Assembly (NCBI GenBank): GCA_902559905.1
Contig: CACEJV010000001.1
Coordinates: 52,495-116,494, forward strand
Direction: 5' to 3'
Origin: an uncultured Bacteroidota bacterium
GTDB taxonomy: Bacteria; Bacteroidota; Bacteroidia; Flavobacteriales; Flavobacteriaceae
DNA length: 64,000 nt
Below the pieces are notes generated by a model. That model was not told the DNA's origin and made no database searches. It saw only the letters and a program-made list of their open reading frames with translations. Each line of letters starts with the position of its first letter. Position 1 is the stretch's first letter. Below, one piece after another: positions 11,338 to 60,963 of the stretch. A program made the position numbers and the translations under genes.

Positions 11338-11343
11338 AAAATC

Positions 11344-11421: not shown

Positions 11422-11459
11422 TAAAACCTTAAATGTTATTATTATGAACTTTATGACAT

Positions 11460-11467
11460 TACATTTG
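11460..11467 (+). promoter_or_regulatory. candidate -7 promoter box (TACATTTG)
   Basis: TAnnTTTG match 17 nt upstream of the TTG start at 11484. Confidence 0.4.
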
Positions 11468-11483
11468 CATTTCAAAAAATTAC

Positions 11484-13550: not shown

Positions 13551-13569
13551 ACAATCAAATCTTAAAATT

Positions 13570-14208
13570 ATGAGAAAAACAATTACCTATATTACTTTAT
13601 TATCACTAATACTTTCATCATGTAGTAAAGATGATGAAGTTCAGCTTTTAGATATTGTATCCGAAAGTTTTGAAAATCTTTATGCTCCTCAAAATGGAGG
13701 AGTTAATCCTAGAACTGGTCAGTTTACACCAATATCGGGCGAATTCACAAAATTCAATTTTTCATCCGGACAAATCACAACTAGTGAAACAGATTGGGAT
13801 GTTGCATTTAGAGGAACTGATATAATTGTTAACGGAGGCGAATCTCTTGGAACCATAGATGAACCTTCTAGAACAGGAAACGCTGCAGTATATATTGCAA
13901 GTGGGACTATGTTATCAGTTGTCGATGTTGATTTACAATCACTAAGTCAAGACTCCACATCTGGATATGCAATTCCATCTGGAGGAGGTAATGGATGGTA
14001 TACATATCAAGGACCTCCTGTTAATATAATCTCTCCAACACCAGGAAAAATATTAGTATTTAGAACTTTTGATGGTAAATATGCTAAAATGGAGATTTTA
14101 AGTTATTACAAAGATGCACCTGAAAGCCCTGACGCATTCACAGATGAGTCTAGATATTATACATTCAATTATGAATATCAGCCCAATGAGGGGATAACAA
14201 ATTTCTAA
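13570..14208 (+). CDS. HmuY-family lipoprotein (putative surface hemophore-like partner of the upstream receptor)
   Basis: Lipobox LSSCSKDDE. Three blocks align with my memory of P. gingivalis HmuY. FTKFNFSSGQITTSETDWDVAFRGTDIIVNGGES matches W.YFSF..G...DWDMALHRYDVRLNCGES. KILVFRTFDGKYAKMEILSYY matches RVFFVRGADGNIAKVQFTDY. YTFNYEYQ matches ITFTYTY. Confidence 0.72.
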   Translation: MRKTITYITLLSLILSSCSKDDEVQLLDIVSESFENLYAPQNGGVNPRTGQFTPISGEFTKFNFSSGQITTSETDWDVAFRGTDIIVNGGESLGTIDEPSRTGNAAVYIASGTMLSVVDVDLQSLSQDSTSGYAIPSGGGNGWYTYQGPPVNIISPTPGKILVFRTFDGKYAKMEILSYYKDAPESPDAFTDESRYYTFNYEYQPNEGITNF

Positions 14209-14225
14209 ACCAATTTGTTTAAAAA

Positions 14226-14260
14226 AGTATATCCATGGTAAAGGTGGATATACTTTTTTT
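14226..14260. terminator. bidirectional intrinsic terminator
   Basis: Perfect 10-bp stem AGTATATCCA/TGGATATACT with a 9-nt loop. An A-tract precedes it and a T-tract follows. It lies between convergent genes. Confidence 0.65.
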
Positions 14261-14265
14261 ATTAT

Positions 14266-15111
14266 TTAGTTTAGATATTTCTTTGGTGTGATACCAAATC
14301 TTTTTTTGAATGCACTAATAAAGTGACTAGCTGAGGAATAGCCTAAGTGTTGTGAAACTTCATTCACATTATAATTTTTACTTGATAACATTTGACTAGC
14401 TTTTGTCATTTTATATTCAGATAGAAAACCATAGACAGTATTTCCATACACTTGCTTAAACCCTGTTTTTAAATTTTTCAAAGGAATTTCAACTTTGGCA
14501 GCTAATTCATTTAATCCAGGTGGGTTATCAATATTTTGAAGAATAATTTCTTTAGCTCTTTTGATCTTGGCAATATTCTTATCATCAGCAAGAAATGGGC
14601 ATTGATCTAGATCAAATTCATTAGATGTATTATATAGAATACTTAAAAGCTCTAAAACCTTTCCATTAAAATATATTTTTTTGATATTATTATTTAGATT
14701 TTCATTTAAAATTTGATTTAATACAGTCAATGTTTTATTTGGAATAGAATCCTCTTTATAATATTTTTTATTAAGGTTATCATCTGAAATGAAAGAGATA
14801 GAACTTGCTGAATCAGAAAAGAGACTATGAAATTTATTAATGGAAATTAATAAGCTCACTAGTTTAGTTTTTGGAGAAATTTTACAATTAATTGGTATAT
14901 TTTTTGAAGGATTATAAAGAGTCAAAAACTTATTACTGTCTAAATTTAATTTATATGAGTCATTGTTGTAGCTAAATGAAGCATTACCATCTATGCAGAA
15001 ATGAAATTGAATATATTTTAAATCTACATCTAAGAAAAAATTACCAGAATTATCATCAATTTTAGATGTATAACACAAAGTTATTTCTTTATCTATATTC
15101 TCAATAATCAT
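14266..15111 (-). CDS. AraC-family transcriptional regulator
   Basis: C-terminal double HTH (NELAAKVEIPLKNLKTGFKQVYG ... VSQHLGYSSASHFISAFKKRFGITPKKY) with an N-terminal ligand/cupin-like domain. Confidence 0.9.
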   Translation of the reverse strand: MIIENIDKEITLCYTSKIDDNSGNFFLDVDLKYIQFHFCIDGNASFSYNNDSYKLNLDSNKFLTLYNPSKNIPINCKISPKTKLVSLLISINKFHSLFSDSASSISFISDDNLNKKYYKEDSIPNKTLTVLNQILNENLNNNIKKIYFNGKVLELLSILYNTSNEFDLDQCPFLADDKNIAKIKRAKEIILQNIDNPPGLNELAAKVEIPLKNLKTGFKQVYGNTVYGFLSEYKMTKASQMLSSKNYNVNEVSQHLGYSSASHFISAFKKRFGITPKKYLN

Positions 15112-30334: not shown

Positions 30335-30994
30335 TTAAAATTCCTTCTTTAAAATATAAATGTCTTCTATAAGTCTTTCCATTGATTCAGAGTTTGTTCC
30401 ATCATAAAAGCCTCTTATTCTTCTGTTAGGATCAACTAATACAAAATTTTCAGTATGAATCATATCATACTTAATATCACTTTCAATATCCTCTGCTACT
30501 AGATAAGACTTTCTGGCAAGATTATATATTTGTTTTTTATCTCCAGTCACAAGATTCCATTTTGAATCAATAATTCCATTATCTATAGAATAATCTTTTA
30601 GAATGTCAACCGAATCAATTTCAGGGGTAACGGTATGAGAAAGAAGTAAAACTTGATTATCGTTAATAAACTCTTTTTGGATATCAATCATGTTGTCCTT
30701 CATAATTGGACAAATTCCTGGACATGTAGTAAAGAAAAAATCAGCTACATAAATTTTTCCATCATATATTTCATTTGTGACTGTATCGTTATTCTGATTA
30801 ATTAATTTAAAGTCATCGATTTTATGAAATCTTTTTACATGTTGAATTGTACTATCAACTAATTGAAACTTTACCATACTAGGTTGATATATTGGTAATT
30901 TTTTTTCAGGTGTCAATACATTATAAAATGAAAACACTGTTATAAGAGAAATTATTATCATTGAAGTTGCAAAAAGCCAGTACTTTTTTAACAT
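30335..30994 (-). CDS. SCO1/SenC-family copper chaperone / thiol-disulfide oxidoreductase
   Basis: Membrane anchor and CPGICP (CxxxC) within a thioredoxin fold. The likely start is MLKKYWLF. The ORF-track start at 31030 is 12 codons longer. Confidence 0.85.
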   Translation of the reverse strand: MLKKYWLFATSMIIISLITVFSFYNVLTPEKKLPIYQPSMVKFQLVDSTIQHVKRFHKIDDFKLINQNNDTVTNEIYDGKIYVADFFFTTCPGICPIMKDNMIDIQKEFINDNQVLLLSHTVTPEIDSVDILKDYSIDNGIIDSKWNLVTGDKKQIYNLARKSYLVAEDIESDIKYDMIHTENFVLVDPNRRIRGFYDGTNSESMERLIEDIYILKKEF

Positions 30995-31046
30995 ATTTTT
31001 TCTAAATATTGGGAAACAAAGATAATTCAAGGAATTAAAAAAATAT

Positions 31047-31071: not shown

Positions 31072-32394
31072 ATGTTATCACCTGAATTTTTAATTAAAGC
31101 TGCACAATTATTTCTGTCTTTATCAATACTTATTATTCTTCATGAATTAGGACATTTTATTCCTGCAAAGCTTTTTGGAACAAGAGTAGAAAAATTTTAC
31201 TTATTTTTTGATGTTAAATATTCTCTTTTTAAGAAAAAAATTGGTGAAACAATTTATGGTATAGGTTGGCTTCCTCTTGGAGGATATGTAAAAATATCAG
31301 GTATGATTGATGAGAGTTTTGATAAAGAACAAATGAGCAAACCTCCTCAGCCATGGGAATTTAGGTCAAAGCCAGCTTGGCAAAGATTAATAATTATGCT
31401 TGGAGGTGTCACAGTAAATCTTATACTTGGATTTGTAATTTATATGATGGTTTTGTTTGTCTGGGGAAAAGAAACACTTCCACAAGAAAATATTCCCCTT
31501 GGAATGCAACCCTCTGAAATCATTCAAGAGATTGGATTTGAAAAAGGAGATAAAATTATTAATGTAGATGGTAAAGAGCTAGATAATGTCCTTGAGATAA
31601 ATAGGATGTTGTTGTTTAGACCAATTGATTATATAACTGTTAAGAAGAATAGTGGTTTGACCTCTGTAATTGATATCCCAAATGATATAGGAAACGAAAT
31701 TTTCCAAAGTGGTCAAATAAATAGTTTTAGTCCAATTTTTGCTGCTGAGATTGATAGTGTAATTCCAGATTCACCAGCCCTGAAATCAGGATTAAAATCT
31801 GGTGATAGAATTTTAAGTGTTAATAATGAAATAGTTGAAGACTGGGTCTCCTTTTCAAACTGGATGGACACAAATGATGATGATATCATTGAATTAATAG
31901 TTGAAAGAAATAATTTAAATTATAATTTATCAATTGATAGAGATAGTGATGGTACAATTGGTGTTTATCCTGCTTTTAATATTAGTACAATTAATAAATC
32001 TGTAGGATTAGTAGATAGTGTCGTCCAAGGATTTAATTATGGATATTGGACCTTATATGAATATGTAGCAGGGTTTCAATTTATTTTTACAAAAAAAGGA
32101 GCACAACAGCTTGGTGGTTTTGGAACTATTGGTAGCATATTTCCAGCAAAGTGGGATTGGAAAGGCTTTTGGTTAAGTACTGCACTTCTCTCAATTATTC
32201 TTGCATTCATGAATGTACTTCCAATTCCTGCTTTGGATGGAGGACATGTAATGTTTTTATTTTATGAAATGATTACTGGAAAGAAACTCAGTGATAAGTT
32301 TATGGAAACCGCAACAATGATTGGATTCTTTCTTTTAATTGCACTTGTTTTATATGCAAATGGTAATGATGTATATAGATTCCTAAATGGATAA
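31072..32394 (+). CDS. rseP: RIP site-2 metalloprotease RseP
   Basis: HELGH in TM1, a PDZ region, and NVLPIPALDGGH. Confidence 0.92.
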   Translation: MLSPEFLIKAAQLFLSLSILIILHELGHFIPAKLFGTRVEKFYLFFDVKYSLFKKKIGETIYGIGWLPLGGYVKISGMIDESFDKEQMSKPPQPWEFRSKPAWQRLIIMLGGVTVNLILGFVIYMMVLFVWGKETLPQENIPLGMQPSEIIQEIGFEKGDKIINVDGKELDNVLEINRMLLFRPIDYITVKKNSGLTSVIDIPNDIGNEIFQSGQINSFSPIFAAEIDSVIPDSPALKSGLKSGDRILSVNNEIVEDWVSFSNWMDTNDDDIIELIVERNNLNYNLSIDRDSDGTIGVYPAFNISTINKSVGLVDSVVQGFNYGYWTLYEYVAGFQFIFTKKGAQQLGGFGTIGSIFPAKWDWKGFWLSTALLSIILAFMNVLPIPALDGGHVMFLFYEMITGKKLSDKFMETATMIGFFLLIALVLYANGNDVYRFLNG

Positions 32395-32400
32395 AAAAAA

Positions 32401-32418
32401 GGCTGGGTTAACCCAGCC
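32401..32418. terminator. bidirectional intrinsic terminator
   Basis: GGCTGGGTTAACCCAGCC is a perfect 7-bp stem with a TTAA loop (the full 18-mer is self-complementary). It is preceded by A8 and lies between convergent rseP and the receptor gene. Confidence 0.65.
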
Positions 32419-32448
32419 CTTAACAAATAACTTCAAATACAAAAAACT

Positions 32449-34605
32449 TTAGAAGTTATATTTTAATCCAACAGATATGTTTCTACCCATCTCATGAATT
32501 CCTGCTGTTTTAAGTCTTGATAAATGATCGTAGTATTCTTTATCAAAAACATTATCAATATTCCAGAAAATATTTAAGTCATTTCCTAGTAATGATGTCA
32601 TCCATGATCCAGATAAATTTAAAAGTGAATATCCATCAGTAGACTCCTCATACATTGCTGTTCTATTTTGTTGAGCCTTGGCTACAAAGTCTACTTCAAA
32701 TGAATAATTGCTAGAAAAACTAATGTTGAAAACTTGATTGAAAGTTAATGGTGATATATATGGTAATGCCATACCGTCTTGTGTTTCACCAAAAATATAT
32801 TCTAGGGAAGAATAAAAAGATAACCAGTCAAAACTTGTATTTTTATTTAGATGTATTTCCCCTCCATAAAGTGTTGCATCTTGCTGTAAATAATTATGAA
32901 GCATTAAACCATCAATAACAGTGTTTGTTGGCTCCAAGTATATGTAATCTCTAATATCATTAAAAAATAAATCAAATGATAAGACTGAATTTTCACCATT
33001 AACTTGAAGTGATAAATCTGTTTGGAAGCTATTTTCAGCTAGTAAATTAGGATCCCCTTTTTTATACATGAATGTCCCATGATGAGATCCATCAGCATAT
33101 AGCTCAATTAAGTTTGGTGACCTAAAACCAGTACTTAAATTAAATCTTAAAGTTGAGTTAGAAAATTCTTTTTTCAAACCAAGTGATCCATTAAAATTAG
33201 AAAAATCGGAAGAAGATGATCCAGATGAAATGGATCTATTGTCATATCTAATTCCAATTAGTGCATCTGAAGAATTGCTAAGTGTAAACTGTCCAAGAGC
33301 ATATAGTCCAAAATCGTTCATCTCTGCATCTGGTATTAAAGTTTCATGACCAAAATTCTTATTCGTCTGACTTAATAGACTCGTACCAATAGTTAGATTC
33401 AAATCTTCTGACTGAGGGAGTACTAAACTAATGTCTAATGTATTTGTTAATAGTTCCATGTCTAATTCAGCTTCACCTTCTTCATGTCCTTCATGATCAT
33501 CATGATCATCGTGATCATCGTGATCCATATGATCATCGTGGTCCTCTTCACCATGTTCTTCATGATCATCATGATCATCATGATCATCATGTTCCTCCTC
33601 ACCATGGCCCCCAAATTCTTTTCTTTCGTTAAATTGTTGACCTAATGTGACATTAAGTACATGATTGTTTCCAAGATCAAACGAATTCTTCCATGTTAAG
33701 GTTGTATGCTTTAGTTCTTGGTAATGATCATCACCGTGTCCTTCATGATCGTCGTGGTCATCATGGTCCATATGATCATCGTGGTCATCATGGTCCATAT
33801 GATCGTCGTGGTTATCATGGTCCATATGATCGTCGTGGTCATCATGACCTTCATCCATATGAGGAATTCCAAGATCACTATCAACTCTACTAAATCTCAG
33901 CTCAGAGGTAAATTTATCACTAGAGTATTGTAAATCTGCTTTAAGCTCATTTTGTTCAAACCATGTGTTTTCAATTTCACCATCTGGAGTAGAAAAATTA
34001 TCATTGTCAATCATATCTGCTCTAAGATTAAAACTAAACTTTCCAGAAGTACCTTTAATTCCTAGATTGTTAGTAACCCCATTATAATTTGAATTGTAAA
34101 CTCCTGTATAGTCAATTGCTAAACCATTACTTGTGTTGAATTTTTCAGGCTCAACATAAAGAACTCCTCCCATAGCGTCACTACCGTAGAGAACATATAA
34201 TGGTCCCTTTATAACCTCTATAGACTCAACACCTGAAGATGAGATACCGATACCGTGCTCTTCACCCCATTGTTGATTTTCTAATCTCACGCCTTGATTA
34301 TATACAACCACTCTATTGAAACTTAATCCTCTAACTGATGGCTTTGCAATATTAGGTCCTGTTGTTATTACAGATACTCCTGGTAACTTTGAGAGTGATT
34401 TACTAATATATTGTTTTAGTATTGGGTTAATATCACCCATATTAATTTTATCAACTTTGATTACAGATTTACCTAGTGTTTGACTAAAAGGTATTGATAA
34501 TACTATTTCATCTAACTCAAATGGGTCCGTAGCTACTTGTGATAAAACTGGTTTTGTTAAAAATAGCATAACTGCTATGATACTTATAATATGTTTTATT
34601 TTCAT
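32449..34605 (-). CDS. TonB-dependent outer-membrane receptor with two long His/Asp/Glu-rich inserts (putative divalent-metal, e.g. zinc, receptor)
   Basis: Signal peptide, plug (LDEIVLSIP, IEVIKGPLYVLYGSDAMGGVLYV), barrel, terminal KYNF. The first insert is HMDEGHDDHDDHMDHDNHDDHMDHDDHDDHMDHDDHDDHEGHGDDH (33724-33861). The second is GGHGEEEHDDHDDHDDHEEHGEEDHDDHMDHDDHDDHDDHEGHEEGE (33472-33612). Confidence 0.9.
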   Translation of the reverse strand: MKIKHIISIIAVMLFLTKPVLSQVATDPFELDEIVLSIPFSQTLGKSVIKVDKINMGDINPILKQYISKSLSKLPGVSVITTGPNIAKPSVRGLSFNRVVVYNQGVRLENQQWGEEHGIGISSSGVESIEVIKGPLYVLYGSDAMGGVLYVEPEKFNTSNGLAIDYTGVYNSNYNGVTNNLGIKGTSGKFSFNLRADMIDNDNFSTPDGEIENTWFEQNELKADLQYSSDKFTSELRFSRVDSDLGIPHMDEGHDDHDDHMDHDNHDDHMDHDDHDDHMDHDDHDDHEGHGDDHYQELKHTTLTWKNSFDLGNNHVLNVTLGQQFNERKEFGGHGEEEHDDHDDHDDHEEHGEEDHDDHMDHDDHDDHDDHEGHEEGEAELDMELLTNTLDISLVLPQSEDLNLTIGTSLLSQTNKNFGHETLIPDAEMNDFGLYALGQFTLSNSSDALIGIRYDNRSISSGSSSSDFSNFNGSLGLKKEFSNSTLRFNLSTGFRSPNLIELYADGSHHGTFMYKKGDPNLLAENSFQTDLSLQVNGENSVLSFDLFFNDIRDYIYLEPTNTVIDGLMLHNYLQQDATLYGGEIHLNKNTSFDWLSFYSSLEYIFGETQDGMALPYISPLTFNQVFNISFSSNYSFEVDFVAKAQQNRTAMYEESTDGYSLLNLSGSWMTSLLGNDLNIFWNIDNVFDKEYYDHLSRLKTAGIHEMGRNISVGLKYNF
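33763..33843 (-). repeat. three tandem 27-bp coding repeats (each encoding an HDDHDDHMD-type unit)
   Basis: Units at 33763-33789, 33790-33816 and 33817-33843 differ at only a few positions. They lie in frame inside the receptor gene. Confidence 0.9.
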
Positions 34606-34655
34606 TTTATTAATTATTTATTATTGTGAACTTCTTAATTATAGTTCTATAAAAA

Positions 34656-34675
34656 CCCCTCCTATAAAGAAGGGG
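34656..34675 (-). terminator. terminator-like hairpin between the mini-lipoprotein gene and the receptor gene
   Basis: The minus strand reads CCCCTTC-TTTATA-GGAGGGG followed by TTTTTAT. The stem is 7 bp including one G-U pair. It could attenuate read-through. Confidence 0.4.
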
Positions 34676-34685
34676 TATTTTACTT

Positions 34686-34817
34686 TTATCTGTTTGTAAC
34701 AAATGCAATGTGGTCATGATCGTCATCGTGGTCATGGCCATCATGATCATCTTTTTCACATGATGCTAATGCAAGTGAAATAACAGAAAACATTAGTATG
34801 TATATATACTTATTCAT
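34686..34817 (-). CDS. 43-aa His/Asp-rich mini-lipoprotein (unannotated, below the ORF-track cutoff)
   Basis: Reverse complement: MNKYIYILMFSVISLALASCEKDDHDGHDHDDDHDHIAFVTNR. It has a signal peptide plus lipobox LASC, then EKDD (acidic surface-export-like residues), then a His/Asp run of the same flavour as the receptor inserts. It lies 80 nt upstream of the receptor gene on the same strand. Confidence 0.55.
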   Translation of the reverse strand: MNKYIYILMFSVISLALASCEKDDHDGHDHDDDHDHIAFVTNR

Positions 34818-34887
34818 AGTTAAAAATTTAAAATTTTAGAAAAATGCTAGATCACATATTTGATCCAACAAAAAATTGAATTAATAG

Positions 34888-35196
34888 TTAAGCCAAATTA
34901 GGTGGGCCTCTTTTTTTAGTAGATTTGTAATCTGTTTTTACAAATAATCTATCATACTTATAAAAAGAATAACTAAAGATGTGAGGTGTAAATGATTCAT
35001 AAATATCTTGTGAAAAAAAACCAGTCTCATCTTCTTGATTTGAAAACAAAGAAATCTGACATTTTAACTTGGAATCATTGATATTTACACCTTCTGAAAT
35101 AAAAGTGTCATGGGAATCATACAAAACATGAAAAGCTTCAACTACTGTTGGAAACAACAGAGAGGTGAACAAAATAAAACTGTATAGATTCCTCAC
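34888..35196 (-). CDS. hypothetical secreted protein, 102 aa, first gene of the putative metal-receptor operon
   Basis: Signal peptide MRNLYSFILFTSLLFPTVVEA. No recognisable family. A -7 box lies immediately upstream. Confidence 0.5.
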   Translation of the reverse strand: MRNLYSFILFTSLLFPTVVEAFHVLYDSHDTFISEGVNINDSKLKCQISLFSNQEDETGFFSQDIYESFTPHIFSYSFYKYDRLFVKTDYKSTKKRGPPNLA

Positions 35197-35261: not shown

Positions 35262-35335
35262 TCCTCCTTAGCTCAGTTGGTTAGAGCATCTGACTGTTAA
35301 TCAGAGGGTCCTTGGTTCGAGTCCAAGAGGGGGAG
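35262..35335 (+). tRNA. tRNA-Asn (anticodon GTT)
   Basis: Cloverleaf folded by hand. Acceptor TCCTCCT/AGGGGGA (one G-U), D arm GCTC-AGTTGGTTA-GAGC, anticodon arm TCTGA-CTGTTAA-TCAGA, T arm CTTGG-TTCGAGT-CCAAG, discriminator G. Length 74 nt; CCA is not encoded. Confidence 0.96.
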
Positions 35336-35369
35336 CAAGCTAACCGCTACATTACACAAATTATTTAAA

Positions 35370-35396: not shown

Positions 35397-35621
35397 TTAG
35401 TCACAAGGTCCCTCTGTAAATGATTTAACTCCACTAAAAGTTGAGGCATAACAATAGTTGGGATATGTTTTACCATCACATCCACATACTGGATCATATA
35501 TCTCTATACAAGCAGATGTAATATCGATTAATGATTCATCAATACAATTTTCATTGTTATTTTCTTTATCCTTAGAGCAAGAAACTATTATTAGGATTAA
35601 TAGAGATATCCATTTTTTCAT
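35397..35621 (-). CDS. Kazal-type protease-inhibitor domain lipoprotein
   Basis: Lipobox IVSCSKDKE. CIEIYDPVCGCDGKTYPNYCYASTFSGVKSFTEGPC fits the Kazal signature (Y-x-P-V-C-G-x-D-G-x-T-Y-x-N-x-C). Confidence 0.8.
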   Translation of the reverse strand: MKKWISLLILIIVSCSKDKENNNENCIDESLIDITSACIEIYDPVCGCDGKTYPNYCYASTFSGVKSFTEGPCD

Positions 35622-35777: not shown

Positions 35778-35966
35778 CTATCCTCCTCTACCCACTTTTC
35801 TTACTCCTGAGGTTCCAGAGTTTTTAAAACCTTTATTTTGGACTTTACTTTTTGTATCTGAATTTGAAGAAATCTTATTCTTTGATTTTGACTTTCTGCC
35901 CTTAAATAATCTCTTACCATTTGTCTCACGGTTATCATTTTTGTTTCCAAAAAACTTACTACCCAT
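35778..35966 (-). CDS. hypothetical very basic, low-complexity 62-aa protein
   Basis: ORF rich in K/S/N/G with no hydrophobic core. Coding status is uncertain. It sits inside a same-strand gene string. Confidence 0.3.
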   Translation of the reverse strand: MGSKFFGNKNDNRETNGKRLFKGRKSKSKNKISSNSDTKSKVQNKGFKNSGTSGVRKVGRGG

Positions 35967-36007: not shown

Positions 36008-37027
36008 TTACCAATCATCATTAATTGGAGGCTCTGGCAAAAAATGAATTACATAATTATCATAAATAGGGTCATAATAATGACCTGCCTCTTTGTAATC
36101 ATCGTTCCAAATTTTATTTCCACTTTCATCTACCTTATATAAGTAAGGTGAGAGATGTAACCTTTCTAAGTGCCATCGGCCTTCCTTCCCTGAGGGAATA
36201 TCCTCTCCACTACCGTATAACATTAAACCGCCTTCAGCAAACACTTCAAATCCTGGGTTTACATCATTGTATTCATGACTAACATTAATTAATTTATGAC
36301 CTAGCTCGTGGGCGATTGTTTTTCTATATCTTTCCTCCGTTGAAAGGTTTGTTATGGTTATAACACCTCTAAGCTCTTTAGGAATTTGGTCAACATAGCT
36401 ATATGAGGGAAATGATAACCCTCCTGTTCGAACTGTTTTCATCATCCAATTTCGACCTTCGGCTAAAGTCAAAAATGGATAAAAAACATCTTGCAGAGCA
36501 ATTAAGTATATCGTTCTTGAATTATTAATATCTTTTTCTACAATACTTCTAAAAGCATTAATTGCATGAGTTGTTGGAATTGATGGATGCCTTCTTGAAT
36601 TTTCATATAGATTAACATATTCCGTATCAGGAATACCAGGAGTCTCATTAGCCTGAATTGATAAATAACTTGAATTTATATTACCTGTTTTAGCAAATAA
36701 CAAGTTTAACTGTACATCAGTTAGTTTGAAGATTTCCTTTGCAAAAAGGAAGCTTTCTATCATCCTGTTAAATGTTACTTTAGTAAATGTTGAGTCCAAA
36801 TTTGAAGGAAAATATATTCCAATATCAACTGTAGGCTTGCCATTTACGAGATCACTATTTATTTGATTGATGTCAATTGAATCAATAAGGCTCCAATTAA
36901 CATCAGGTTCTGAATCATCATTATAATTTGAAGTAAGATTAGATGAATTTATACAACCTGTAACCATTAAAAATATTAAGAAAACTGGCATAGTGTTTAT
37001 AGCTACAAAATTTCTGATACTGTTCAT
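36008..37027 (-). CDS. putative zinc metalloprotease lipoprotein (HExxH)
   Basis: Lipobox MVTGCINSS and the motif TIAHELGHKLINVSHEY. No closer family assignment is possible by eye. Confidence 0.65.
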   Translation of the reverse strand: MNSIRNFVAINTMPVFLIFLMVTGCINSSNLTSNYNDDSEPDVNWSLIDSIDINQINSDLVNGKPTVDIGIYFPSNLDSTFTKVTFNRMIESFLFAKEIFKLTDVQLNLLFAKTGNINSSYLSIQANETPGIPDTEYVNLYENSRRHPSIPTTHAINAFRSIVEKDINNSRTIYLIALQDVFYPFLTLAEGRNWMMKTVRTGGLSFPSYSYVDQIPKELRGVITITNLSTEERYRKTIAHELGHKLINVSHEYNDVNPGFEVFAEGGLMLYGSGEDIPSGKEGRWHLERLHLSPYLYKVDESGNKIWNDDYKEAGHYYDPIYDNYVIHFLPEPPINDDW

Positions 37028-44797: not shown

Positions 44798-44842
44798 ATT
44801 TACAAGTTAATCAAAAAGTTTAAAATTGATTAAATTAGATTG

Positions 44843-45634
44843 ATGTTACACTTGTTAAGGAGTTTTAAAGTATTTCTAATTTTTCTAATATTTATATCCT
44901 GTGAACCTATTGATGATTCCAATAAATGGGTTAGTTTATTTGATGGAAAAAGTCTAGATGGCTGGGAAATGAAAATTTCTGGTTATGAATTAAATAATAA
45001 TCATAGAAATACTTTTAGAGTTGGTGATGGCACTATCAAAGTGACATATGAAGATTATGATTTATTTGATGAAAATTTTGGGCATATTTTTTATACTAAT
45101 AAGAAATTTAAAAATTACCATTTGAAACTTGATTATAGATTTTATGGTGAACATGTTAATTTATTTACAAACGAGAATGATGCATGGAATTATAAAAACA
45201 GCGGAGTAATGCTACATTCTGAACATCCAAATCAAATGTTTTTAGATCAAGGATTTCCTGTAAGTATAGAAGGGCAATTTCTTGGAGGCTCTGGTGTAAA
45301 TGATAGACCAACACTTAATATGTGTTCACCTGGAACTGAGGTTGACATAAATGGAACTCAAGCTATGCAGCACTGTGTTAACTCATCCTCAAAAACAATT
45401 CATACTGAAGAATGGGTGAGTGTTGAGTTTCTTGTTTTTTCTGATTCAATTGTTCACCATATAGTTGATAAAGACACAGTAATGACATATTCTAATATTC
45501 GTTTCGGAGGAACATACTTGTCTAAAAACTTCACTGATAAAGTTGGCGAGCCTTTGAAAGAAGGCTATATATCCCTTCAATCTGAAGGTCATCCTATTGA
45601 ATTTAAAAATATCAGAGTTAAAGAACTTGATTAA
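44843..45634 (+). CDS. DUF1080 (3-keto-disaccharide hydrolase family) protein
   Basis: WVSLFDGKSLDGWEM at the N-terminus and GYISLQSEGHPIEFKNIRVKEL at the C-terminus are the family hallmarks. Confidence 0.8.
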   Translation: MLHLLRSFKVFLIFLIFISCEPIDDSNKWVSLFDGKSLDGWEMKISGYELNNNHRNTFRVGDGTIKVTYEDYDLFDENFGHIFYTNKKFKNYHLKLDYRFYGEHVNLFTNENDAWNYKNSGVMLHSEHPNQMFLDQGFPVSIEGQFLGGSGVNDRPTLNMCSPGTEVDINGTQAMQHCVNSSSKTIHTEEWVSVEFLVFSDSIVHHIVDKDTVMTYSNIRFGGTYLSKNFTDKVGEPLKEGYISLQSEGHPIEFKNIRVKELD

Positions 45635-45636
45635 TA

Positions 45637-45918
45637 CTATAATATCTTACCCCAATCTCCTCCGGTATATATTTCAATTATAGACCAAGCCGAGAACAAA
45701 CTAGTTATTATTATAAAAATTAGAGTGTAAAAAATCCAAAATAATTTTTTTTTAATTAAATAAAATAAAGACCCAACTATAAAAGAAGGTACATTAAGAA
45801 TTAAAACAAGCATTAAAGGATCAATTAAAATAAATGTCTCAAAGTCAAAGTTGTGGATCAAAAAGAAAACTAATCCTAATATATAGCTTAAAATAATATA
45901 TGACTTTAACTTACTCAT
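45637..45918 (-). CDS. hypothetical membrane protein (3 TM)
   Basis: 93 aa and strongly hydrophobic. Confidence 0.45.
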   Translation of the reverse strand: MSKLKSYIILSYILGLVFFLIHNFDFETFILIDPLMLVLILNVPSFIVGSLFYLIKKKLFWIFYTLIFIIITSLFSAWSIIEIYTGGDWGKIL

Positions 45919-45931
45919 TAGATAAATAATT

Positions 45932-46621
45932 CTAAAGCTTTTTAATTTTTATATTCCTAAATGAAAGATCATTACCATAATCTTGAAAGCCAATATATCC
46001 AGTCTTAAACTCACCATAATCTTTATTATCTCGCCACATTGAATTATTTTTCTTTTCATACCATTCATCTGACCAAGGTGTAAATGATAAAACTTTATTA
46101 CCATTTAACCAATATTCAACATTTTCCTCAGTAAATATAATTTTGGAAGAATTCCACTGACCTACAGGATTTAAAATTTTCATTTTTGGATCTGCTGCAT
46201 ACATCCCGTAATCAGAGGCTGTTTTTTGTAGCGGTGTTAATGAAATTCCATGAATTGAATCATAATTAACATCGTCAATTATTTGATACTCTGGTGATCC
46301 TCCGCCAAATTCTTGTAAATGATAAAAAATACCACTGTTACCGCCAGGTGGAATCTTCCACTCCAAATAAAGCTCAAAATTGTCAAACATTTCAGCACCA
46401 TAAATAATATCTATTTTTTCATCCTCTTCTGTACCTTTTTTCCTTAGAGTTAAGGTTCCATCAATTATTTTCCAACCAGAGTGTAAGTTAGACCCATCTC
46501 TTGCTAACCAACCACTAGTAGATGAACCATCAAATAAGTTTATCCATTCAGACTCTGACTGAACATTAGAATTACATGAGATAAGCAGGAAATAAATTGA
46601 AAACAAGATTTTTTTTATCAT
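45932..46621 (-). CDS. DUF1080 (3-keto-disaccharide hydrolase family) protein
   Basis: WINLFDGSSTSGW and GYIGFQDYGNDLSFRNIKIKKL. Confidence 0.8.
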   Translation of the reverse strand: MIKKILFSIYFLLISCNSNVQSESEWINLFDGSSTSGWLARDGSNLHSGWKIIDGTLTLRKKGTEEDEKIDIIYGAEMFDNFELYLEWKIPPGGNSGIFYHLQEFGGGSPEYQIIDDVNYDSIHGISLTPLQKTASDYGMYAADPKMKILNPVGQWNSSKIIFTEENVEYWLNGNKVLSFTPWSDEWYEKKNNSMWRDNKDYGEFKTGYIGFQDYGNDLSFRNIKIKKL

Positions 46622-46630
46622 TGTTCTAAT

Positions 46631-47962
46631 TTAAAAAATTCTATATTTTGAACCTAGGAATTGATTAACTTCAGAGTCTTCAAATTTAAAATTTTCTTTA
46701 TCCCATTTAAGTAATCTATTTGGAAATCGTCCGGCAATAACACCTAAAAGAACTACCTGTGTTAATCTACCAGAATAAGAAAAAGGAGTTGAACAATCTG
46801 TCTTTCCCAAACACGCATCAACGAATTCATGATAATGTACTTTTGCATCTAAATTATATTCTCTGTAAGGTTTTCTTAATTTCAATGCTTCAGGATACTT
46901 AGATATATCAATTTTTTTATACTCACCTTTAACAATTAGCCTTGGCTCTTGCATAAAATGTGGTAGAAGTAATTTGCCTTTTTCTCCAATAAACATTGAC
47001 CCTTGAAGTGGAAGTCTATCTTGTTTAGGTAATATCAAATCTTTCACGGTTAATGGAAATTGTCCATCTGTCCAAACCAAAGTCATATTGTCAGTTGTAT
47101 ATGCTGTTCCTGGAAAATTATATGTTACAGTACTTTTTGTAGGAAAACTAAAACCATTAAATTCTCTACATTCATTTTTAATACTAATTGGAAAATCTAA
47201 TTCTAAAGCATTGTAAGGGGTATCTAAAATATGTACTCCCATATCACCTAATGTTCCACAACCATAGTCAATTACTTTTCGCCATTGACTAGGATGGTAG
47301 TAGCCTTCTTTATATGGTCTTTTCTTAGATGTTCCAAGCCATAAGTTCCAATCGAGAGACTCAGGAATAGGATCATTTCCAATTGGGACAGTTCCATCAT
47401 AACCAGAGTTTCCATTAGTCCAGGCTCTAACTTTTTTTACTTTCCCTATAATCCCTTCTTTGATTAAAATAGTTGCTAGTTTGTAATCATAAAAAGAGTG
47501 AACTTGGATTCCCATTTGAGTTATTAAATTTTTTTCATTAGCAATTCTAATCATTGATCTTGCTTCTTTTGGATTATGTGTAAGGGGTTTTTGACAATAA
47601 ACATGTTTATTTAAATTCATTGCCATGATAGCTGCAGGTGCATGAGTATGATCAGGAGTTGATATTTGGACTGCATCAATTTGATTCTTCATCTCCTTTA
47701 GCATTATTCGATAATCAGAATATTGTAATGCATTGGGGTATATTTCCTTTAAATTATCTAATGCCAAAGAATCAACATCACATAATCCAACAATTTCAAC
47801 TTGAGAATGTGAAGAAATAGAATTTAGATCCTGTGCTCCCATTCCACCTACTCCAATCTGAGCGATTCTAATTTTTTCTCTACCTAATGACCACACTGGT
47901 GAGGGTAGAACTGCTAGTGATGCTAAAGCAGCTGATCTTTTTAAAAAATCTCTTTTTTTCAC
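46631..47962 (-). CDS. Gfo/Idh/MocA-family oxidoreductase with Tat-like signal
   Basis: MKKRDFLKRSAALASLAVLP is a twin-arginine-type motif with KR in place of RR. The Rossmann block is IRIAQIGVGGMGAQD, and CQKPLTH is also present. Confidence 0.87.
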   Translation of the reverse strand: MKKRDFLKRSAALASLAVLPSPVWSLGREKIRIAQIGVGGMGAQDLNSISSHSQVEIVGLCDVDSLALDNLKEIYPNALQYSDYRIMLKEMKNQIDAVQISTPDHTHAPAAIMAMNLNKHVYCQKPLTHNPKEARSMIRIANEKNLITQMGIQVHSFYDYKLATILIKEGIIGKVKKVRAWTNGNSGYDGTVPIGNDPIPESLDWNLWLGTSKKRPYKEGYYHPSQWRKVIDYGCGTLGDMGVHILDTPYNALELDFPISIKNECREFNGFSFPTKSTVTYNFPGTAYTTDNMTLVWTDGQFPLTVKDLILPKQDRLPLQGSMFIGEKGKLLLPHFMQEPRLIVKGEYKKIDISKYPEALKLRKPYREYNLDAKVHYHEFVDACLGKTDCSTPFSYSGRLTQVVLLGVIAGRFPNRLLKWDKENFKFEDSEVNQFLGSKYRIF

Positions 47963-60951: not shown

Positions 60952-60963
60952 ACTCAAACCGTT

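What the first reader, a model, noticed from the sequence alone, without database searches (positions are those of the whole stretch)
32449..34605. TonB-dependent receptor with two about 46-residue, almost pure His/Asp/Glu inserts
Seen in the sequence: an otherwise ordinary 718-aa TonB-dependent receptor contains two unusual inserts.
- The first is HMDEGHDDHDDHMDHDNHDDHMDHDDHDDHMDHDDHDDHEGHGDDH (33724-33861).
- The second is GGHGEEEHDDHDDHDDHEEHGEEDHDDHMDHDDHDDHDDHEGHEEGE (33472-33612).
- They are separated by a normal barrel segment.

Established: His/Asp-rich surface loops occur in zinc receptors such as Neisseria/Acinetobacter ZnuD, where they capture Zn2+.

Inference: this is a divalent-metal receptor (Zn, possibly Ni/Co/Cu) with very high-capacity capture loops. 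In a low-metal ocean setting, such loops could act as an antenna or buffer.
Basis: partly seen in the sequence, partly recalled or inferred. Interest (0 to 1): 0.7.

Follow-up and report, generated by a model that had tools for sequence, protein, structure and literature searches.

The report
ZnuD-like metal receptor with histidine-rich antenna loops
A small-genome marine flavobacterium carries an outer-membrane importer related to the zinc receptor ZnuD, with two surface loops expanded into long, length-variable histidine/aspartate/glutamate repeats and a tiny histidine-rich lipoprotein gene beside it, which most likely form a system for catching scarce metal ions from seawater.

Summary
ORF 32449-34605 (-) is a 718-aa TonB-dependent transporter. 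It holds two inserts of 46-47 aa that are 83-85% His/Asp/Glu, against 13.6% in the rest of the protein.

- **Location of the inserts.** A usable AlphaFold model (pLDDT 78) shows 22 strands. The inserts lie in extracellular loops L3 and L4.
- **Closest relative.** ZnuD of Neisseria is the best solved relative both by profile (E 4e-64) and by fold.
- **Metal site.** Counterparts of three ZnuD zinc ligands are conserved: E116 (94 of 95 homologues), H117 and H508 (95 of 95 each). The fourth ligand maps ambiguously, to E330 or E375.
- **Distribution.** Both inserts occur throughout a clade of uncultured marine Flavobacteriales (Ca. Marisimplicoccus / MED-G11 / MED-G14).
- **Length variation.** Alleles with identical cores differ by whole 8-aa units.
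- **Wider family.** In more distant homologues, 19 of 19 species-named proteins from genera I know as marine have a shorter His/Glu-rich L4. All eight Flavobacterium proteins have 7 residues and no His. The L3 insert is specific to this clade.
- **New parts.** A conserved 40-46-aa lipoprotein lies directly upstream in 13 of 13 loci that carry it. It has a His/Asp-rich mature part and a surface-export signal (C-X-K-D-D). A conserved ~100-aa 'RGPP' protein lies next to it.

The zinc/divalent-metal reading is supported by homology and topology only. The metal itself is untested. I rate this a new variant of a known kind.

The parts
32449..34605 (-). TonB-dependent transporter gene, 718 aa, ZnuD-like. 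It lacks the N-terminal CarboxypepD_reg domain that its 30-40%-identical flavobacterial homologues have. It contains no cysteine.
34540..34605 (-). Signal peptide, aa 1-22 (MKIKHIISIIAVMLFLTKPVLSQ | VATD). The cleavage site was read by eye.
   Evidence: Sequence. The model shows an N-terminal helix at aa 2-15. No signal-peptide predictor was available.
34492..34518 (-). TonB-box-like segment, aa 30-38 (ELDEIVLSI). The family consensus is EEVIVST.
   Evidence: Consensus and invariant columns. The assignment rests on resemblance to the TonB-box consensus, which is my own knowledge.
34162..34455 (-). Plug domain (Pfam match, aa 51-148).
34255..34260 (-). E116-H117 within the motif NQQWGEEHG at the plug apex. 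They align with ZnuD zinc ligands D99-H100.
   Evidence: Three independent alignments agree. H117 is in 95 of 95 and E116 in 94 of 95 homologues. ZnuD ligands are from PMC4557270.
33724..33861 (-). Insert 1, aa 249-294, forming extracellular loop L3. It is a His/Asp tandem repeat (unit HMDHDDHDD, 27 nt, 3.8 copies) and is disordered in the model.
   Evidence: In 89 distant homologues this loop is a constant 16-17 residues without His.
33613..33723 (-). Barrel strands 6 and 7 (aa 295-312 and 315-331) joined by a 2-residue periplasmic turn. This hairpin separates the two inserts. It contains invariant N326, R328 and E330; E330 (33616-33618) is a candidate counterpart of ZnuD ligand E340.
   Evidence: The E330 mapping is my own strand-register argument. 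HMMER and MAFFT place E340 near E375 instead.
33472..33612 (-). Insert 2, aa 332-378, forming extracellular loop L4. It is a His/Asp/Glu repeat array and is disordered in the model. Its C-terminal end (HEGHEEGEAELD) is conserved in the close family.
   Evidence: The homologous loop is 7-45 residues long in distant homologues.
33043..33126 (-). Loop L7 segment FRSP...H508-H509...DPNL (aa 494-521). H508 aligns with ZnuD zinc ligand H499. The flanking boxes resemble the FRAP/NPNL boxes of haem receptors.
   Evidence: H508 in 95 of 95. The FRAP/NPNL comparison is my own knowledge.
34686..34817 (-). Mini-lipoprotein gene, 43 aa: MNKYIYILMFSVISLALAS|CEKDDHDGHDHDDDHDHIAFVTNR. It has a lipobox, a C-X-K-D-D surface-export signal, and a 24-aa mature peptide with 5 His and 9 Asp/Glu.
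   Evidence: The export-signal consensus is from PMC5080379. It is found directly upstream of the transporter gene in 13 of 13 loci that carry it.
34655..34676 (-). G+C-rich hairpin followed by a T run, lying between the mini-lipoprotein gene and the transporter gene. It looks like an intrinsic terminator.
   Evidence: free energy -20.5 kcal/mol, z-score -3.8. A hairpin with a different sequence sits at the same place in L008, L014, L015, L020 and L032.
34845..34870 (-). Conserved intergenic element holding the palindrome GATCA-N6-TGATC, upstream of the mini-lipoprotein gene. It may be a promoter or operator.
   Evidence: It is conserved only among close relatives (L003, L008, L021, L038, L039). 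Its function is unknown.
34888..35196 (-). Conserved 102-aa 'RGPP' protein gene. The product has an N-terminal hydrophobic segment, invariant His23 and Cys46, and a C-terminal RGPP motif. Homologues lie immediately upstream of the homologous transporter gene in Polaribacter, Zhouia and ocean MAGs.
   Evidence: It has no Pfam or NCBIfam family.
32398..32421 (-). Terminator-like hairpin downstream of the transporter gene, shared with the convergent rseP-like gene.

Best explanation
This is a TonB-dependent outer-membrane importer of the ZnuD type. It most likely takes up a free or weakly bound divalent transition-metal ion, with Zn2+ the best guess. The host is an uncultured, small-genome marine flavobacterium of the Ca. 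Marisimplicoccus / MED-G11 group.

**Shown here**
- The protein has a plug inside a 22-strand barrel.
- The two His/Asp/Glu arrays are the extracellular loops L3 and L4. They are predicted to be disordered.
- Residues that align with three ZnuD zinc ligands are conserved across the family: E116/H117 on the plug apex and H508 in L7. A fourth acidic candidate is E330 or E375.

**Inferred**
- The two polyanionic loops together carry 28 His and 50 Asp/Glu. They sweep the space above the barrel and bind metal ions weakly at many sites. This is the 'fishing net' role proposed for ZnuD loop 3.
- The loops hand the ion down to the buried site. TonB-driven movement of the plug then releases it into the periplasm.
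- The 24-residue His/Asp lipopeptide encoded just upstream carries the flavobacterial surface-export signal. It would sit in the outer leaflet beside the barrel as an extra capture arm or lid.
- Its own terminator hairpin would let it be made in excess over the transporter.
- The conserved 'RGPP' protein is a further partner of unknown role.

**Repeat behaviour**
The loop arrays are in-frame tandem repeats of 9, 24 or 27 nt, encoded by self-complementary GATCAT-type DNA. Loop length therefore changes by whole units without breaking the reading frame.
For: - **Family.** Plug and barrel domains are present.
- **Nearest solved relative.** ZnuD is best by sequence (E 1.3e-13), by family profile (220 bits against 115 for PhuR, about 105-108 for ShuA/ChuA and about 103 for OprC) and by fold (ranks 1-4, target TM-score 0.77-0.87).
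- **Topology.** The model has pLDDT 78 and 22 strands. The inserts fall between strands 5/6 and 7/8. All periplasmic turns are 2-6 residues.
- **Loop alignment.** ZnuD's L3 His/Asp cluster 'GLPAHSHEYDDCHAD' aligns with 'GIPHMDEGHDD'.
- **Ligand counterparts.** E116 is in 94 of 95 homologues; H117, H508 and E330 are each in 95 of 95.
- **Published basis.** His/Asp stretches are proposed to capture zinc, and the high-affinity site is D99/H100/E340/H499 (PMC2895646; PMC4557270).
- **Selection on composition.** Both inserts persist down to 43% identity with many different repeat units, yet always H/D/E.
- **Habitat pattern.** The 19 species-named proteins from genera I know as marine have a 21-41-aa His/Glu-rich L4. 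All 8 Flavobacterium proteins have 7 residues and no His.
- **Iron and haem are covered elsewhere.** The same window holds an Fbp-like ABC system, a siderophore-type transporter, and a second transporter followed by an HmuY-like gene.
- **No copper-type site.** The protein has no cysteine, so an OprC-type Cys/Met site is impossible.
- **Lipopeptide.** It has a lipobox and an exact C-X-K-(D/E)2-X export signal. It lies directly upstream in 13 of 13 loci, and its indels are in whole codons (PMC5080379).
Against: - No binding, transport or expression data exist. The metal is inferred only from homology and composition, and His/Asp/Glu peptides also bind Ni, Co, Cu and Fe(II).
- The protein scores 124 bits against a cutoff of 950 for NCBIfam's ZnuD model. 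It scores slightly higher on the generic haem-receptor model (139 bits, also below its cutoff).
- Identity to ZnuD in the structural alignment is only 16-17%.
- The fourth zinc ligand cannot be placed with confidence: E330 by strand register, E375 by HMMER and MAFFT.
- The window contains no zur, znuABC or ZIP gene. No recognised Zur box was found.
- The lipopeptide has no proteomic support and only 6 database entries. It is absent from the sub-clade with HGDEDHDE repeats.
- Some of the copy-number variation may come from short-read assembly. One related locus has an N gap inside insert 2.
Confidence: 0.62

Rival explanations
1. It is the same kind of transporter and capture loops, but the physiological substrate is another cation (Ni2+, Co2+, Cu2+, Fe2+ or Mn2+) rather than zinc.
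For: - His-rich acidic stretches are not metal-specific (my own knowledge).
- OprC, a copper transporter, is the second-best structural and profile match.
- The window's insert 1 has Met in every unit (HMDHDDHDD).
- A SCO1/SenC copper-chaperone gene lies two genes away in conserved synteny.
Against: - ZnuD scores about twice as high as OprC with the family profile.
- The protein has no cysteine, so an OprC-like Cys/Met site cannot form.
- Met is not part of the repeat unit in most of the clade (HGDEDHDE, HDDHDDHEG).
- The conserved candidate ligands are His/Glu, as in the ZnuD zinc site.
- Iron and haem systems are encoded separately in the window.
Confidence: 0.2
2. It is a haem or haemoprotein receptor of the HemR/ShuA/HmuR type, and the His-rich loops bind haem iron.
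For: - The top NCBIfam partial hits are TonB-hemin (139 bits) and hemoglobin/transferrin/lactoferrin receptors (125 bits).
- FRAP/NPNL-like boxes (FRSP...DPNL) flank the conserved H508, and there is a conserved plug His. This is the layout of haem receptors (plus my own knowledge).
- ZnuD itself is structurally close to haem receptors (PMC4557270).
Against: - Both NCBIfam scores are far below their cutoffs.
- The family profile prefers ZnuD by more than 100 bits, and the fold search ranks ZnuD first.
- Another transporter in the window is paired with an HmuY-like gene.
- There is no haem-handling gene at this locus.
- Loops made of 50 Asp/Glu and 28 His look like a cation binder.
- ZnuD, which has the same two-His clamp, did not bind haem-agarose (PMC4557270).
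Confidence: 0.08
3. The repeat loops are mainly a variable surface feature. They could be a decoy or shield against phages, grazers or bacteriocins that use the transporter as a receptor, or a generic cation cloud. Under this reading they are not part of substrate capture.
For: - Loop length differs between alleles whose cores are 100% identical.
- Repeat units are homogenised differently in close relatives (HMD against HEG units).
- Transporters of this class are common phage and bacteriocin receptors (my own knowledge).
Against: - Composition is tightly held (83-85% H/D/E) across lineages down to 43% identity while the sequence is free to change. This points to selection on chemistry rather than on novelty.
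- The same chemistry appears in the separately encoded lipopeptide.
- It also appears in the L4 of many marine genera.
- ZnuD has homologous clusters in L3.
Confidence: 0.07
4. The 43-codon ORF upstream is not a lipoprotein. It would be a leader peptide whose His/Asp codons, together with the hairpin that follows, attenuate transcription of a very His/Asp-rich protein according to the supply of charged tRNA.
For: - A short ORF rich in His and Asp codons is followed 10 nt later by a stable terminator hairpin and then by the His/Asp-rich gene.
- The hairpin is kept in structure but not in sequence in other lineages.
Against: - The ORF keeps a full lipoprotein signal: a basic N-terminus, a hydrophobic core and a lipobox with an invariant Cys.
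- It also keeps an exact C-X-K-D-D export signal and an invariant C-terminal HDHIA-x-V motif. A leader peptide needs none of these (PMC5080379).
- I looked for no alternative antiterminator pairing and none is evident.
- The sub-clade that lacks the ORF still has equally His-rich inserts.
Confidence: 0.1

Closest known systems
ZnuD (TdfJ) of Neisseria meningitidis, PDB 4RDR / 4RDT / 4RVW
   Same: - It is a TonB-dependent transporter and the best solved relative by sequence, profile and fold.
- It has His/Asp/Glu-rich clusters in extracellular loop 3, starting at the same aligned position ('GLPAHSHEYDD' against 'GIPHMDEGHDD').
- Counterparts of its zinc ligands D99/H100 and H499 are conserved here (E116/H117, H508).
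- Its loops are proposed to act as a 'fishing net' (PMC4557270).
   Different: - Identity in the structural alignment is only 16-17%, and the NCBIfam ZnuD model gives 124 bits against a cutoff of 950.
- ZnuD has two 11-residue clusters, both in L3, brought together by a disulfide. This protein has no Cys.
- This protein has a 46-aa array in L3 and a second 47-aa array in L4.
- The arrays are tandem repeats whose length varies.
- The host is a free-living marine flavobacterium, not a mucosal pathogen.
- A His-rich lipopeptide gene and an 'RGPP' gene accompany it.
Unnamed flavobacterial TonB-dependent receptors with a His/Glu-rich L4 (Polaribacter, Zunongwangia, Salegentibacter, Muricauda and others; P0271-P0390)
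   Same: - They belong to the same protein family at 30-40% identity.
- H117, E330 and H508 are invariant.
- The same 'RGPP' gene lies upstream.
- L4 carries a 21-41-aa His/Glu-rich insert in the marine genera.
   Different: - They have an extra N-terminal CarboxypepD_reg domain.
- Their L3 is a constant 16-17 residues without His.
- They have DUF6146 and DUF6787 genes upstream and no mini-lipoprotein.
- Their inserts are Glu-based rather than Asp-based.
- Sources name them only 'TonB-dependent receptor', and I found no paper on them.
Haem receptors ShuA / ChuA / PhuR / HmuR
   Same: They share the fold, the plug-apex His paired with a loop His, and FRAP/NPNL-like boxes. They are next after ZnuD in the profile search and follow ZnuD and OprC in the fold search.
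   Different: - Profile scores are much lower.
- They have no His/Asp/Glu arrays.
- There is no haem-handling neighbour at this locus, whereas a separate transporter in the window is paired with an HmuY-like gene.
OprC / NosA copper transporters
   Same: They take up an ionic metal through a TonB-dependent transporter, and they are the second-best structural match.
   Different: The OprC site uses Cys and Met, and this protein has no Cys. TIGR01778 gives 80 bits against a cutoff of 472.
[quoted passage not shown]
   Same: It is a flexible His/Asp-rich stretch thought to catch zinc and pass it to a high-affinity site. Both ZnuD papers cite it as the analogy.
   Different: It belongs to a different protein in a different compartment, and it is a single short loop, not a tandem-repeat array.
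Bacteroidota surface lipoprotein plus TonB-dependent transporter pairs (SusCD, BtuB-BtuG, HmuR-HmuY)
   Same: A lipoprotein gene lies next to the transporter gene, and the lipoprotein carries the phylum's surface-export signal (PMC5080379; PMC10404256 listed).
   Different: The partner here is only 24 residues when mature and has no folded domain. The substrate would be a bare ion. No complex has been shown.

Membership tests
TonB-dependent transporter (Pfam PF07715 + PF00593) | Plug domain and beta-barrel domain both above the Pfam gathering scores | tested here: met
   Plug scores 53.7 bits (cutoff 23.9) and the barrel 108.5 bits (cutoff 27).
TonB-dependent transporter (Pfam PF07715 + PF00593) | A 22-strand barrel with short periplasmic turns, long extracellular loops and a C-terminal aromatic residue | tested here: met
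   The AlphaFold model (pLDDT 78) has 22 strands and turns of 2-6 residues. The protein ends in Phe718.
TonB-dependent transporter (Pfam PF07715 + PF00593) | N-terminal signal peptide and TonB box | tested here: inconclusive
   A hydrophobic N-terminus and the segment ELDEIVLSI (family consensus EEVIVST) are present. Both were judged by eye; no predictor was available.
ZnuD (NCBIfam NF038289, zinc piracy TonB-dependent receptor) | Score at or above the curated cutoff of the family model | tested here: not met
   The score is 124.4 bits against a cutoff of 950. The protein is therefore not ZnuD in the strict sense.
ZnuD (NCBIfam NF038289, zinc piracy TonB-dependent receptor) | ZnuD is the nearest characterised or solved relative | tested here: met
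   E 1.3e-13, top hit; E 4.4e-64, more than 100 bits above the next protein; Foldseek ranks 1-4.
ZnuD (NCBIfam NF038289, zinc piracy TonB-dependent receptor) | His/Asp-rich stretches in extracellular loop 3 | tested here: met
   Insert 1 lies in L3 and aligns with ZnuD cluster 1. It is about four times longer, and a second array sits in L4.
ZnuD (NCBIfam NF038289, zinc piracy TonB-dependent receptor) | High-affinity zinc site D99, H100, E340, H499 | tested here: inconclusive
   E116/H117 and H508 align consistently and are conserved in 94, 95 and 95 of 95 homologues. E340 maps to E330 or E375 depending on the alignment.
ZnuD (NCBIfam NF038289, zinc piracy TonB-dependent receptor) | Two L3 cysteines that bring the His/Asp stretches together | tested here: not met
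   The protein has no cysteine.
ZnuD (NCBIfam NF038289, zinc piracy TonB-dependent receptor) | Zinc/Zur-regulated expression, or linkage to znuABC or zur | tested here: inconclusive
   No zur, znuABC or ZIP gene was found among the annotated window ORFs. Conserved upstream palindromes exist but cannot be assigned to a regulator. Expression cannot be tested with these tools.
ZnuD (NCBIfam NF038289, zinc piracy TonB-dependent receptor) | Binds and transports Zn2+ | not testable with these tools
   This needs biochemistry or genetics.
Haem/haemoglobin TonB-dependent receptors (TIGR01785, TIGR01786) | Score at or above the curated cutoffs | tested here: not met
   The scores are 139 against 316.85 and 125.1 against 323.75.
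Haem/haemoglobin TonB-dependent receptors (TIGR01785, TIGR01786) | FRAP/NPNL boxes around a conserved loop His, plus a plug His | tested here: met
   FRSP (494-497), H508 and DPNL (518-521) are present, as is H117. ZnuD shares this layout, so it does not discriminate between the two families.
Haem/haemoglobin TonB-dependent receptors (TIGR01785, TIGR01786) | Haem-handling partner genes at the locus | tested here: not met
   None is present at this locus. An HmuY-like gene follows a different transporter at 11484-14208.
OprC/NosA copper receptor (TIGR01778) | Model cutoff reached and a Cys/Met/His copper site present | tested here: not met
   The score is 80.5 bits against a cutoff of 472.45. 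The protein has zero Cys.
Bacteroidota surface-lipoprotein partner of a TonB-dependent transporter | Adjacent gene encoding a lipoprotein with a lipobox and the export signal C-X-K-(D/E)2-X | tested here: met
   The sequence is LALAS|C-E-K-D-D-H. C20, K22, D23 and D24 are invariant in 8 aligned sequences. The consensus comes from PMC5080379. The gene is adjacent in 13 of 13 loci.
Bacteroidota surface-lipoprotein partner of a TonB-dependent transporter | Surface exposure and a physical complex with the transporter | not testable with these tools
   This needs surface proteomics or labelling, or co-purification.

The most novel reading that the evidence does not exclude
The locus encodes a three-part surface system for harvesting bare metal ions, not described so far.

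1. A ZnuD-like transporter whose L3 and L4 are disordered tandem-repeat 'antennae'. Their length is adjusted in whole units by slippage or recombination within natural populations.
2. A surface-exposed, lipid-anchored 24-residue His/Asp peptide. It would be the smallest known lipoprotein partner of a TonB-dependent transporter and would act as an extra capture arm.
3. A conserved small His/Cys 'RGPP' membrane protein.

If this is right, the family would be the main route by which marine Flavobacteriia obtain zinc (or another trace cation) at picomolar free-ion levels. Loop length would then be an ecologically tuned trait, readable in metagenomes as a marker of metal stress.
Probability: 0.3. 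Interest if true: 0.8.

Novelty: new variant of a known kind. Interest (0 to 1): 0.6.

Why it matters
**Open question.** To my knowledge, how free-living marine heterotrophs obtain zinc and other trace cations is poorly understood. Free-ion levels in seawater are picomolar (my own knowledge). Zinc uptake through TonB-dependent transporters has been characterised mainly in mucosal pathogens (PMC2895646).

**What this family offers.**
- It is abundant in ocean metagenomes; the nearest protein cluster alone has 267 member sequences.
- It is widespread in marine Flavobacteriaceae.
- It gives a concrete, testable candidate for that uptake route.

**Unusual protein design.**
- About 13% of an outer-membrane protein is devoted to two disordered metal-binding repeat arrays.
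- The length of these arrays changes between otherwise identical alleles.
- A lipopeptide with the same chemistry is encoded beside it.

If confirmed, loop length and gene expression could serve as field markers of trace-metal stress in Flavobacteriia. The lipopeptide would extend the 'surface lipoprotein plus transporter' principle of Bacteroidota to bare ions.

Tried and rejected
- **First structure prediction failed.** With 26 close homologues (75-97% identity) the model had pLDDT 29 and I did not use it. A profile search supplied 89 diverse homologues, and the second prediction worked.
- **No family for the small proteins.** NCBIfam and Pfam gave no significant family for the 'RGPP' protein, the mini-lipoprotein, the HExxH protein or the 146-aa neighbour. 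The lipopeptide's only hits were two weak N-terminal matches to lipoprotein signal peptides.
- **Database search with the mini-lipoprotein.** It gave only 6 hits, all from the same clade.
- **Metagenome scan with the mini-lipoprotein.** The scan used a low-specificity His/Asp pattern and confirmed only 2 further loci. Both have the same gene order.
- **Placing ZnuD ligand E340 by alignment.** HMMER and MAFFT thread ZnuD's long L3 across strands 6 and 7 of this protein and land on E375. Strand register suggests E330. I leave this open.
- **Looking for a regulator site.** The palindrome TAATTC-N4-GAATTA lies 33-50 nt upstream of the first gene in five related loci, but not in the window. The window's own palindrome GATCA-N6-TGATC is shared only with close relatives. 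Neither can be assigned to Zur or Fur.
- **Copper reading rejected as the main one.** The protein has no Cys, and Met is not conserved in the repeats.
- **Leader-peptide attenuation kept only as a minor rival** for the 43-codon ORF.
- **Literature searches.** Searches on ZnuD in Flavobacteria or Bacteroidota, on His-rich transporters in marine bacteria, and on Marisimplicoccus found no description of this family. The library is limited to open-access papers and preprints.
- **Antisense ORFs dismissed.** The ORFs at 33438-33632, 33693-33893 and 33718-33933 (+) are by-products of the self-complementary repeat DNA.

Full report
**1. Observation**

It has a Pfam Plug domain (aa 51-148) and a TonB-dependent receptor barrel domain (aa 288-686).

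- Insert 1 is aa 249-294 (nt 33724-33861): 15 His, 21 Asp and 2 Glu in 46 residues.
- Insert 2 is aa 332-378 (nt 33472-33612): 13 His, 16 Asp and 11 Glu in 47 residues.
- These are 83% and 85% H/D/E, against 13.6% in the other 625 residues.
- The protein has 39 His in all and no Cys.

At DNA level the inserts are in-frame tandem repeats. A 27-nt unit occurs 3.8 times with 94% matches at 33745-33846. Units of 9 and 51 nt cover 33491-33606. His-Asp is encoded largely as GATCAT, so the repeat DNA is self-complementary. The region holds 24 inverted-repeat pairs and a high density of GATC sites. This also explains the His-rich antisense ORFs listed there, which I regard as artefacts.

**2. Where the inserts sit**

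A first AlphaFold run on 26 close homologues failed (pLDDT 29). I then searched with a family profile and obtained 120 diverse flavobacterial homologues at 30-40% identity. With 89 of these in a 95-sequence alignment, the model reached pLDDT 78 and pTM 0.77.

The model has a plug and exactly 22 strands. Insert 1 lies between strand 5 (232-246) and strand 6 (295-312). Insert 2 lies between strand 7 (315-331) and strand 8 (381-395). In this fold, strand 1 starts and strand 22 ends on the periplasmic side, so odd-to-even connections are extracellular. On that parity the inserts are loops L3 and L4.

The assignment is self-consistent. All ten even-to-odd connections are 2-6 residues long, and every long connection falls on the other side. 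Both inserts are predicted disordered (pLDDT below 50). The 37 residues between them are a normal barrel hairpin with a 2-residue periplasmic turn.

**3. What the protein is related to**

ZnuD of Neisseria meningitidis is the nearest solved structure.

- Single sequence: E 1.3e-13.
- Profile of 51 family members: E 4.4e-64 and 220 bits. The next proteins are PhuR at 115 bits, ShuA/ChuA at 105-108 and OprC at about 103.
- Fold search with the model: ZnuD entries take ranks 1-4.

NCBIfam places the protein in no curated family. The scores are TonB-hemin 139 bits (cutoff 317), ZnuD 124 (cutoff 950) and copper receptor 80 (cutoff 472). It is therefore ZnuD-like, not ZnuD in the strict sense.

The ZnuD structure paper gives the high-affinity zinc site as D99, H100, E340 and H499. 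It describes two His/Asp/Glu clusters in L3 that act like a 'fishing net' (PMC4557270). The original paper noted that all ZnuD homologues share such His/Asp regions (PMC2895646).

Three independent alignments place ZnuD D99-H100 on E116-H117 (motif NQQWGEEHG at the plug apex) and H499 on H508. H117 and H508 are in 95 of 95 homologues and E116 in 94 of 95.

The fourth ligand is ambiguous. HMMER and MAFFT place E340 near E375, at the conserved end of insert 2. Strand register places it on E330, which is in 95 of 95 homologues. ZnuD's first cluster ('GLPAHSHEYDDCHAD') aligns with the start of insert 1 ('GIPHMDEGHDD').

**4. How widespread the inserts are**

All 120 closest database proteins (70-96% identity, almost all from ocean metagenomes and single-cell genomes) have both inserts.

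A scan of one genome per species found the gene in Ca. Marisimplicoccus, 'Cryomorphaceae MED-G11 / MED-G14' and many uncultured Bacteroidetes single-cell genomes. Both inserts persist down to 43% identity.

The repeat unit differs between lineages: HMDHDDHDD, HDDHDDHEG, HGDEDHDE, HDDHDEEG and others. The H/D/E composition is kept throughout. This points to selection on chemistry rather than on sequence.

Insert lengths step in whole units: 13, 21, 29, 37 and 45 residues for insert 1 and 11, 19, 27, 35, 43 and 51 for insert 2. There are 1394 pairs of proteins that are at least 97% identical outside the inserts but differ in insert length. The 15 most similar of these pairs are 100% identical outside the inserts.

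One caveat applies. Arrays of up to about 150 nt are hard for short-read assemblers. One related locus has an N gap inside insert 2, and another has a frameshift that looks like a long-read error. Some of the variation may therefore be technical, although the single-cell genomes also differ.

**5. The wider family**

In the 89 homologues at 30-40% identity, L3 is a constant 16-17 residues with essentially no His. L4 ranges from 7 to 45 residues.

Among proteins with an organism name:
- All 19 species-named proteins from genera I know as marine have a 21-41-aa His/Glu-rich L4. These are Zhouia, Polaribacter, Autumnicola, Muricauda, Zunongwangia, Joostella, Flagellimonas, Tenacibaculum, Salinimicrobium, Salegentibacter, Christiangramia and Maribacter.
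- All eight Flavobacterium proteins have a 7-residue 'EDSNxAx' L4.
- Three Tara ocean proteins also have a short L4, and Flavobacterium is a single clade. The habitat link is therefore suggestive only.

So a His-rich L4 is common and unremarked; sources call these proteins only 'TonB-dependent receptor'. The L3 array, the Asp-based repeats and the loss of the N-terminal CarboxypepD_reg domain are specific to the clade of this window.

**6. Neighbours**

*The mini-lipoprotein.* Eighty nucleotides upstream of the transporter gene lies a 43-codon ORF (34686-34817, -): MNKYIYILMFSVISLALASCEKDDHDGHDHDDDHDHIAFVTNR.

- It has a lipoprotein-type signal with a lipobox Cys.
- Directly after the Cys comes C-E-K-D-D. 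This matches the optimal flavobacterial surface-export signal C-X-K-(D/E)2-X (PMC5080379).
- The 24-residue mature part has 5 His and 9 Asp/Glu.
- An ORF of this kind (40-46 codons) lies directly upstream of the transporter gene in 13 of 13 loci where it occurs. These are the window and twelve others, whose transporters are about 63-98% identical to the window's. It occurs nowhere else in any locus or in the 64-kb window.
- M1, C20, K22, D23, D24 and the tail HDHIA-x-V are invariant. Length differences are whole codons.
- It is missing in the HGDEDHDE sub-clade.

*The hairpin.* A stable hairpin followed by a T run comes after the ORF (free energy -20.5 kcal/mol, z-score -3.8). Other lineages have a hairpin with a different sequence at the same place.

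*The 'RGPP' protein.* Further upstream, the 102-aa ORF 34888-35196 (-) is homologous to a ~100-aa protein found immediately upstream of the homologous transporter gene in Polaribacter, Zhouia and ocean MAGs. It has an N-terminal hydrophobic segment, invariant His23 and Cys46, and a C-terminal RGPP motif. It has no Pfam or NCBIfam family.

*The rest of the window.* It holds no zur, znuABC or ZIP gene. It does hold an apparent iron/haem region at 4.9-15.1 kb: an Fbp-like ABC system, a siderophore-type transporter, and a second transporter followed by an HmuY-like gene and an AraC regulator. Iron and haem therefore seem to be covered by other systems.

**7. Most likely mechanism**

*Shown:* the fold, the extracellular position and disorder of the arrays, the ZnuD relationship and the conserved candidate ligands.

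*Inferred:* the two polyanionic His-rich loops bind divalent transition-metal ions at many weak sites and pass them to a buried site formed by E116/H117, H508 and a conserved Glu. TonB action on the plug then admits the ion. Zinc is the best guess because of ZnuD and the His/carboxylate ligand set. Ni, Co, Cu or Fe(II) are not excluded.

The lipopeptide would be a surface-tethered extra capture arm, possibly made in excess because of its own terminator. Repeat slippage or recombination changes loop length without loss of frame.

Rivals are listed with their evidence: another metal, a haem receptor, loops as a variable decoy, and the mini-ORF as an attenuator leader.

**8. Comparison, novelty and score**

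The protein works like ZnuD but fails strict membership. It is below the family model cutoff, has no L3 disulfide, and no zinc regulation is shown. The idea that His/Asp loops on a TonB-dependent receptor catch zinc is established.

What is new here:
- the scale (93 residues in two loops);
- the tandem-repeat nature and population-level length variation;
- the second array in L4, with its spread across marine Flavobacteriaceae;
- the His-rich surface lipopeptide and the 'RGPP' partner.

I found no paper describing any of these, within the limits of the open-access library. I rate it a new variant of a known kind, with interest 0.6.

Noticed in passing
window 34686-34817 (-): A 43-codon ORF encodes a lipoprotein with a C-E-K-D-D surface-export signal and a 24-aa His/Asp-rich mature peptide. 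It lies directly upstream of the transporter gene and is conserved in 12 other loci. Databases hold almost no copies (6 hits).
   Followed up: yes
window 34888-35196 (-); L004 7615-7887, L005 7588-7923, L006 7618-7932: A ~100-aa protein lies immediately upstream of this transporter family across Flavobacteriia. It has an N-terminal hydrophobic segment, invariant His and Cys, and a C-terminal RGPP motif. It has no Pfam or NCBIfam family. In distant genomes it follows DUF6146 and DUF6787 genes.
   Followed up: partly
L012 452-467, L013 906-921, L014 2709-2724, L017 2716-2731, L024 916-931: An exact palindrome TAATTC-N4-GAATTA lies 33-50 nt upstream of the first gene (mini-lipoprotein or transporter) in five related loci. 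I estimate about 0.3 chance matches across all loci. It may be an operator. It is absent from the window, which has GATCA-N6-TGATC at 34848-34867 instead.
   Followed up: partly
window 4921-15111: An apparent iron/haem uptake region. It contains an ABC transporter (ATPase, double permease, Fbp-like binding protein), a siderophore-type TonB-dependent receptor (8689-10902), a DCC1-like oxidoreductase, a second receptor (11484-13550) followed by an HmuY-like protein (13570-14208), and an AraC-type regulator.
   Followed up: partly
alignment A3, loop L4 (query aa 332-380): All 19 species-named homologues from genera I know as marine Flavobacteriaceae have a 21-41-aa His/Glu-rich L4. All eight Flavobacterium homologues have a 7-residue L4 without His. 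Three Tara ocean proteins are also short, and phylogeny confounds the pattern.
   Followed up: partly
window 33438-33933 (+): Three antisense ORFs of 64-71 aa with His-rich or Ile/Val/Met-rich translations overlap the inserts. They arise because (GATCAT)n-type repeat DNA is self-complementary. The inserts hold 13 GATC sites in 279 nt, against 197 in the whole 64-kb window.
   Followed up: yes
L021 3001-5106; L024 961-2935: Two related loci have a disrupted transporter gene. L021 has a frameshift just after insert 1 in a long-read, polished MAG. L024 has a 100-N scaffold gap inside insert 2. Both look like assembly problems near the repeats rather than real pseudogenes.
   Followed up: partly
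window 35262-35336 (+), 35397-35621 (-), 35778-35966 (-), 36008-37027 (-): Upstream of the locus lie a tRNA-Asn(GTT), a 74-aa Kazal-type lipoprotein, a 62-aa very basic Lys/Ser/Gly-rich protein, and a 339-aa secreted protein with an HELGH zinc-protease motif that fits no family. All are syntenic in relatives L001 and L002.
   Followed up: no
window 30335-31030 (-), 31072-32394 (+): A SCO1/SenC copper-chaperone homologue and an RseP-type M50 site-2 protease lie just downstream of the transporter gene, in synteny conserved in L001, L002 and L003. No functional link to the transporter is evident.
   Followed up: no
window 44840-47962 and 59543-62549: Two 3-keto-disaccharide hydrolase paralogues lie next to a GFO/IDH/MocA oxidoreductase. 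Elsewhere there are a SOUL haem-binding-domain protein and an ammonium transporter with a small upstream ORF.
   Followed up: no
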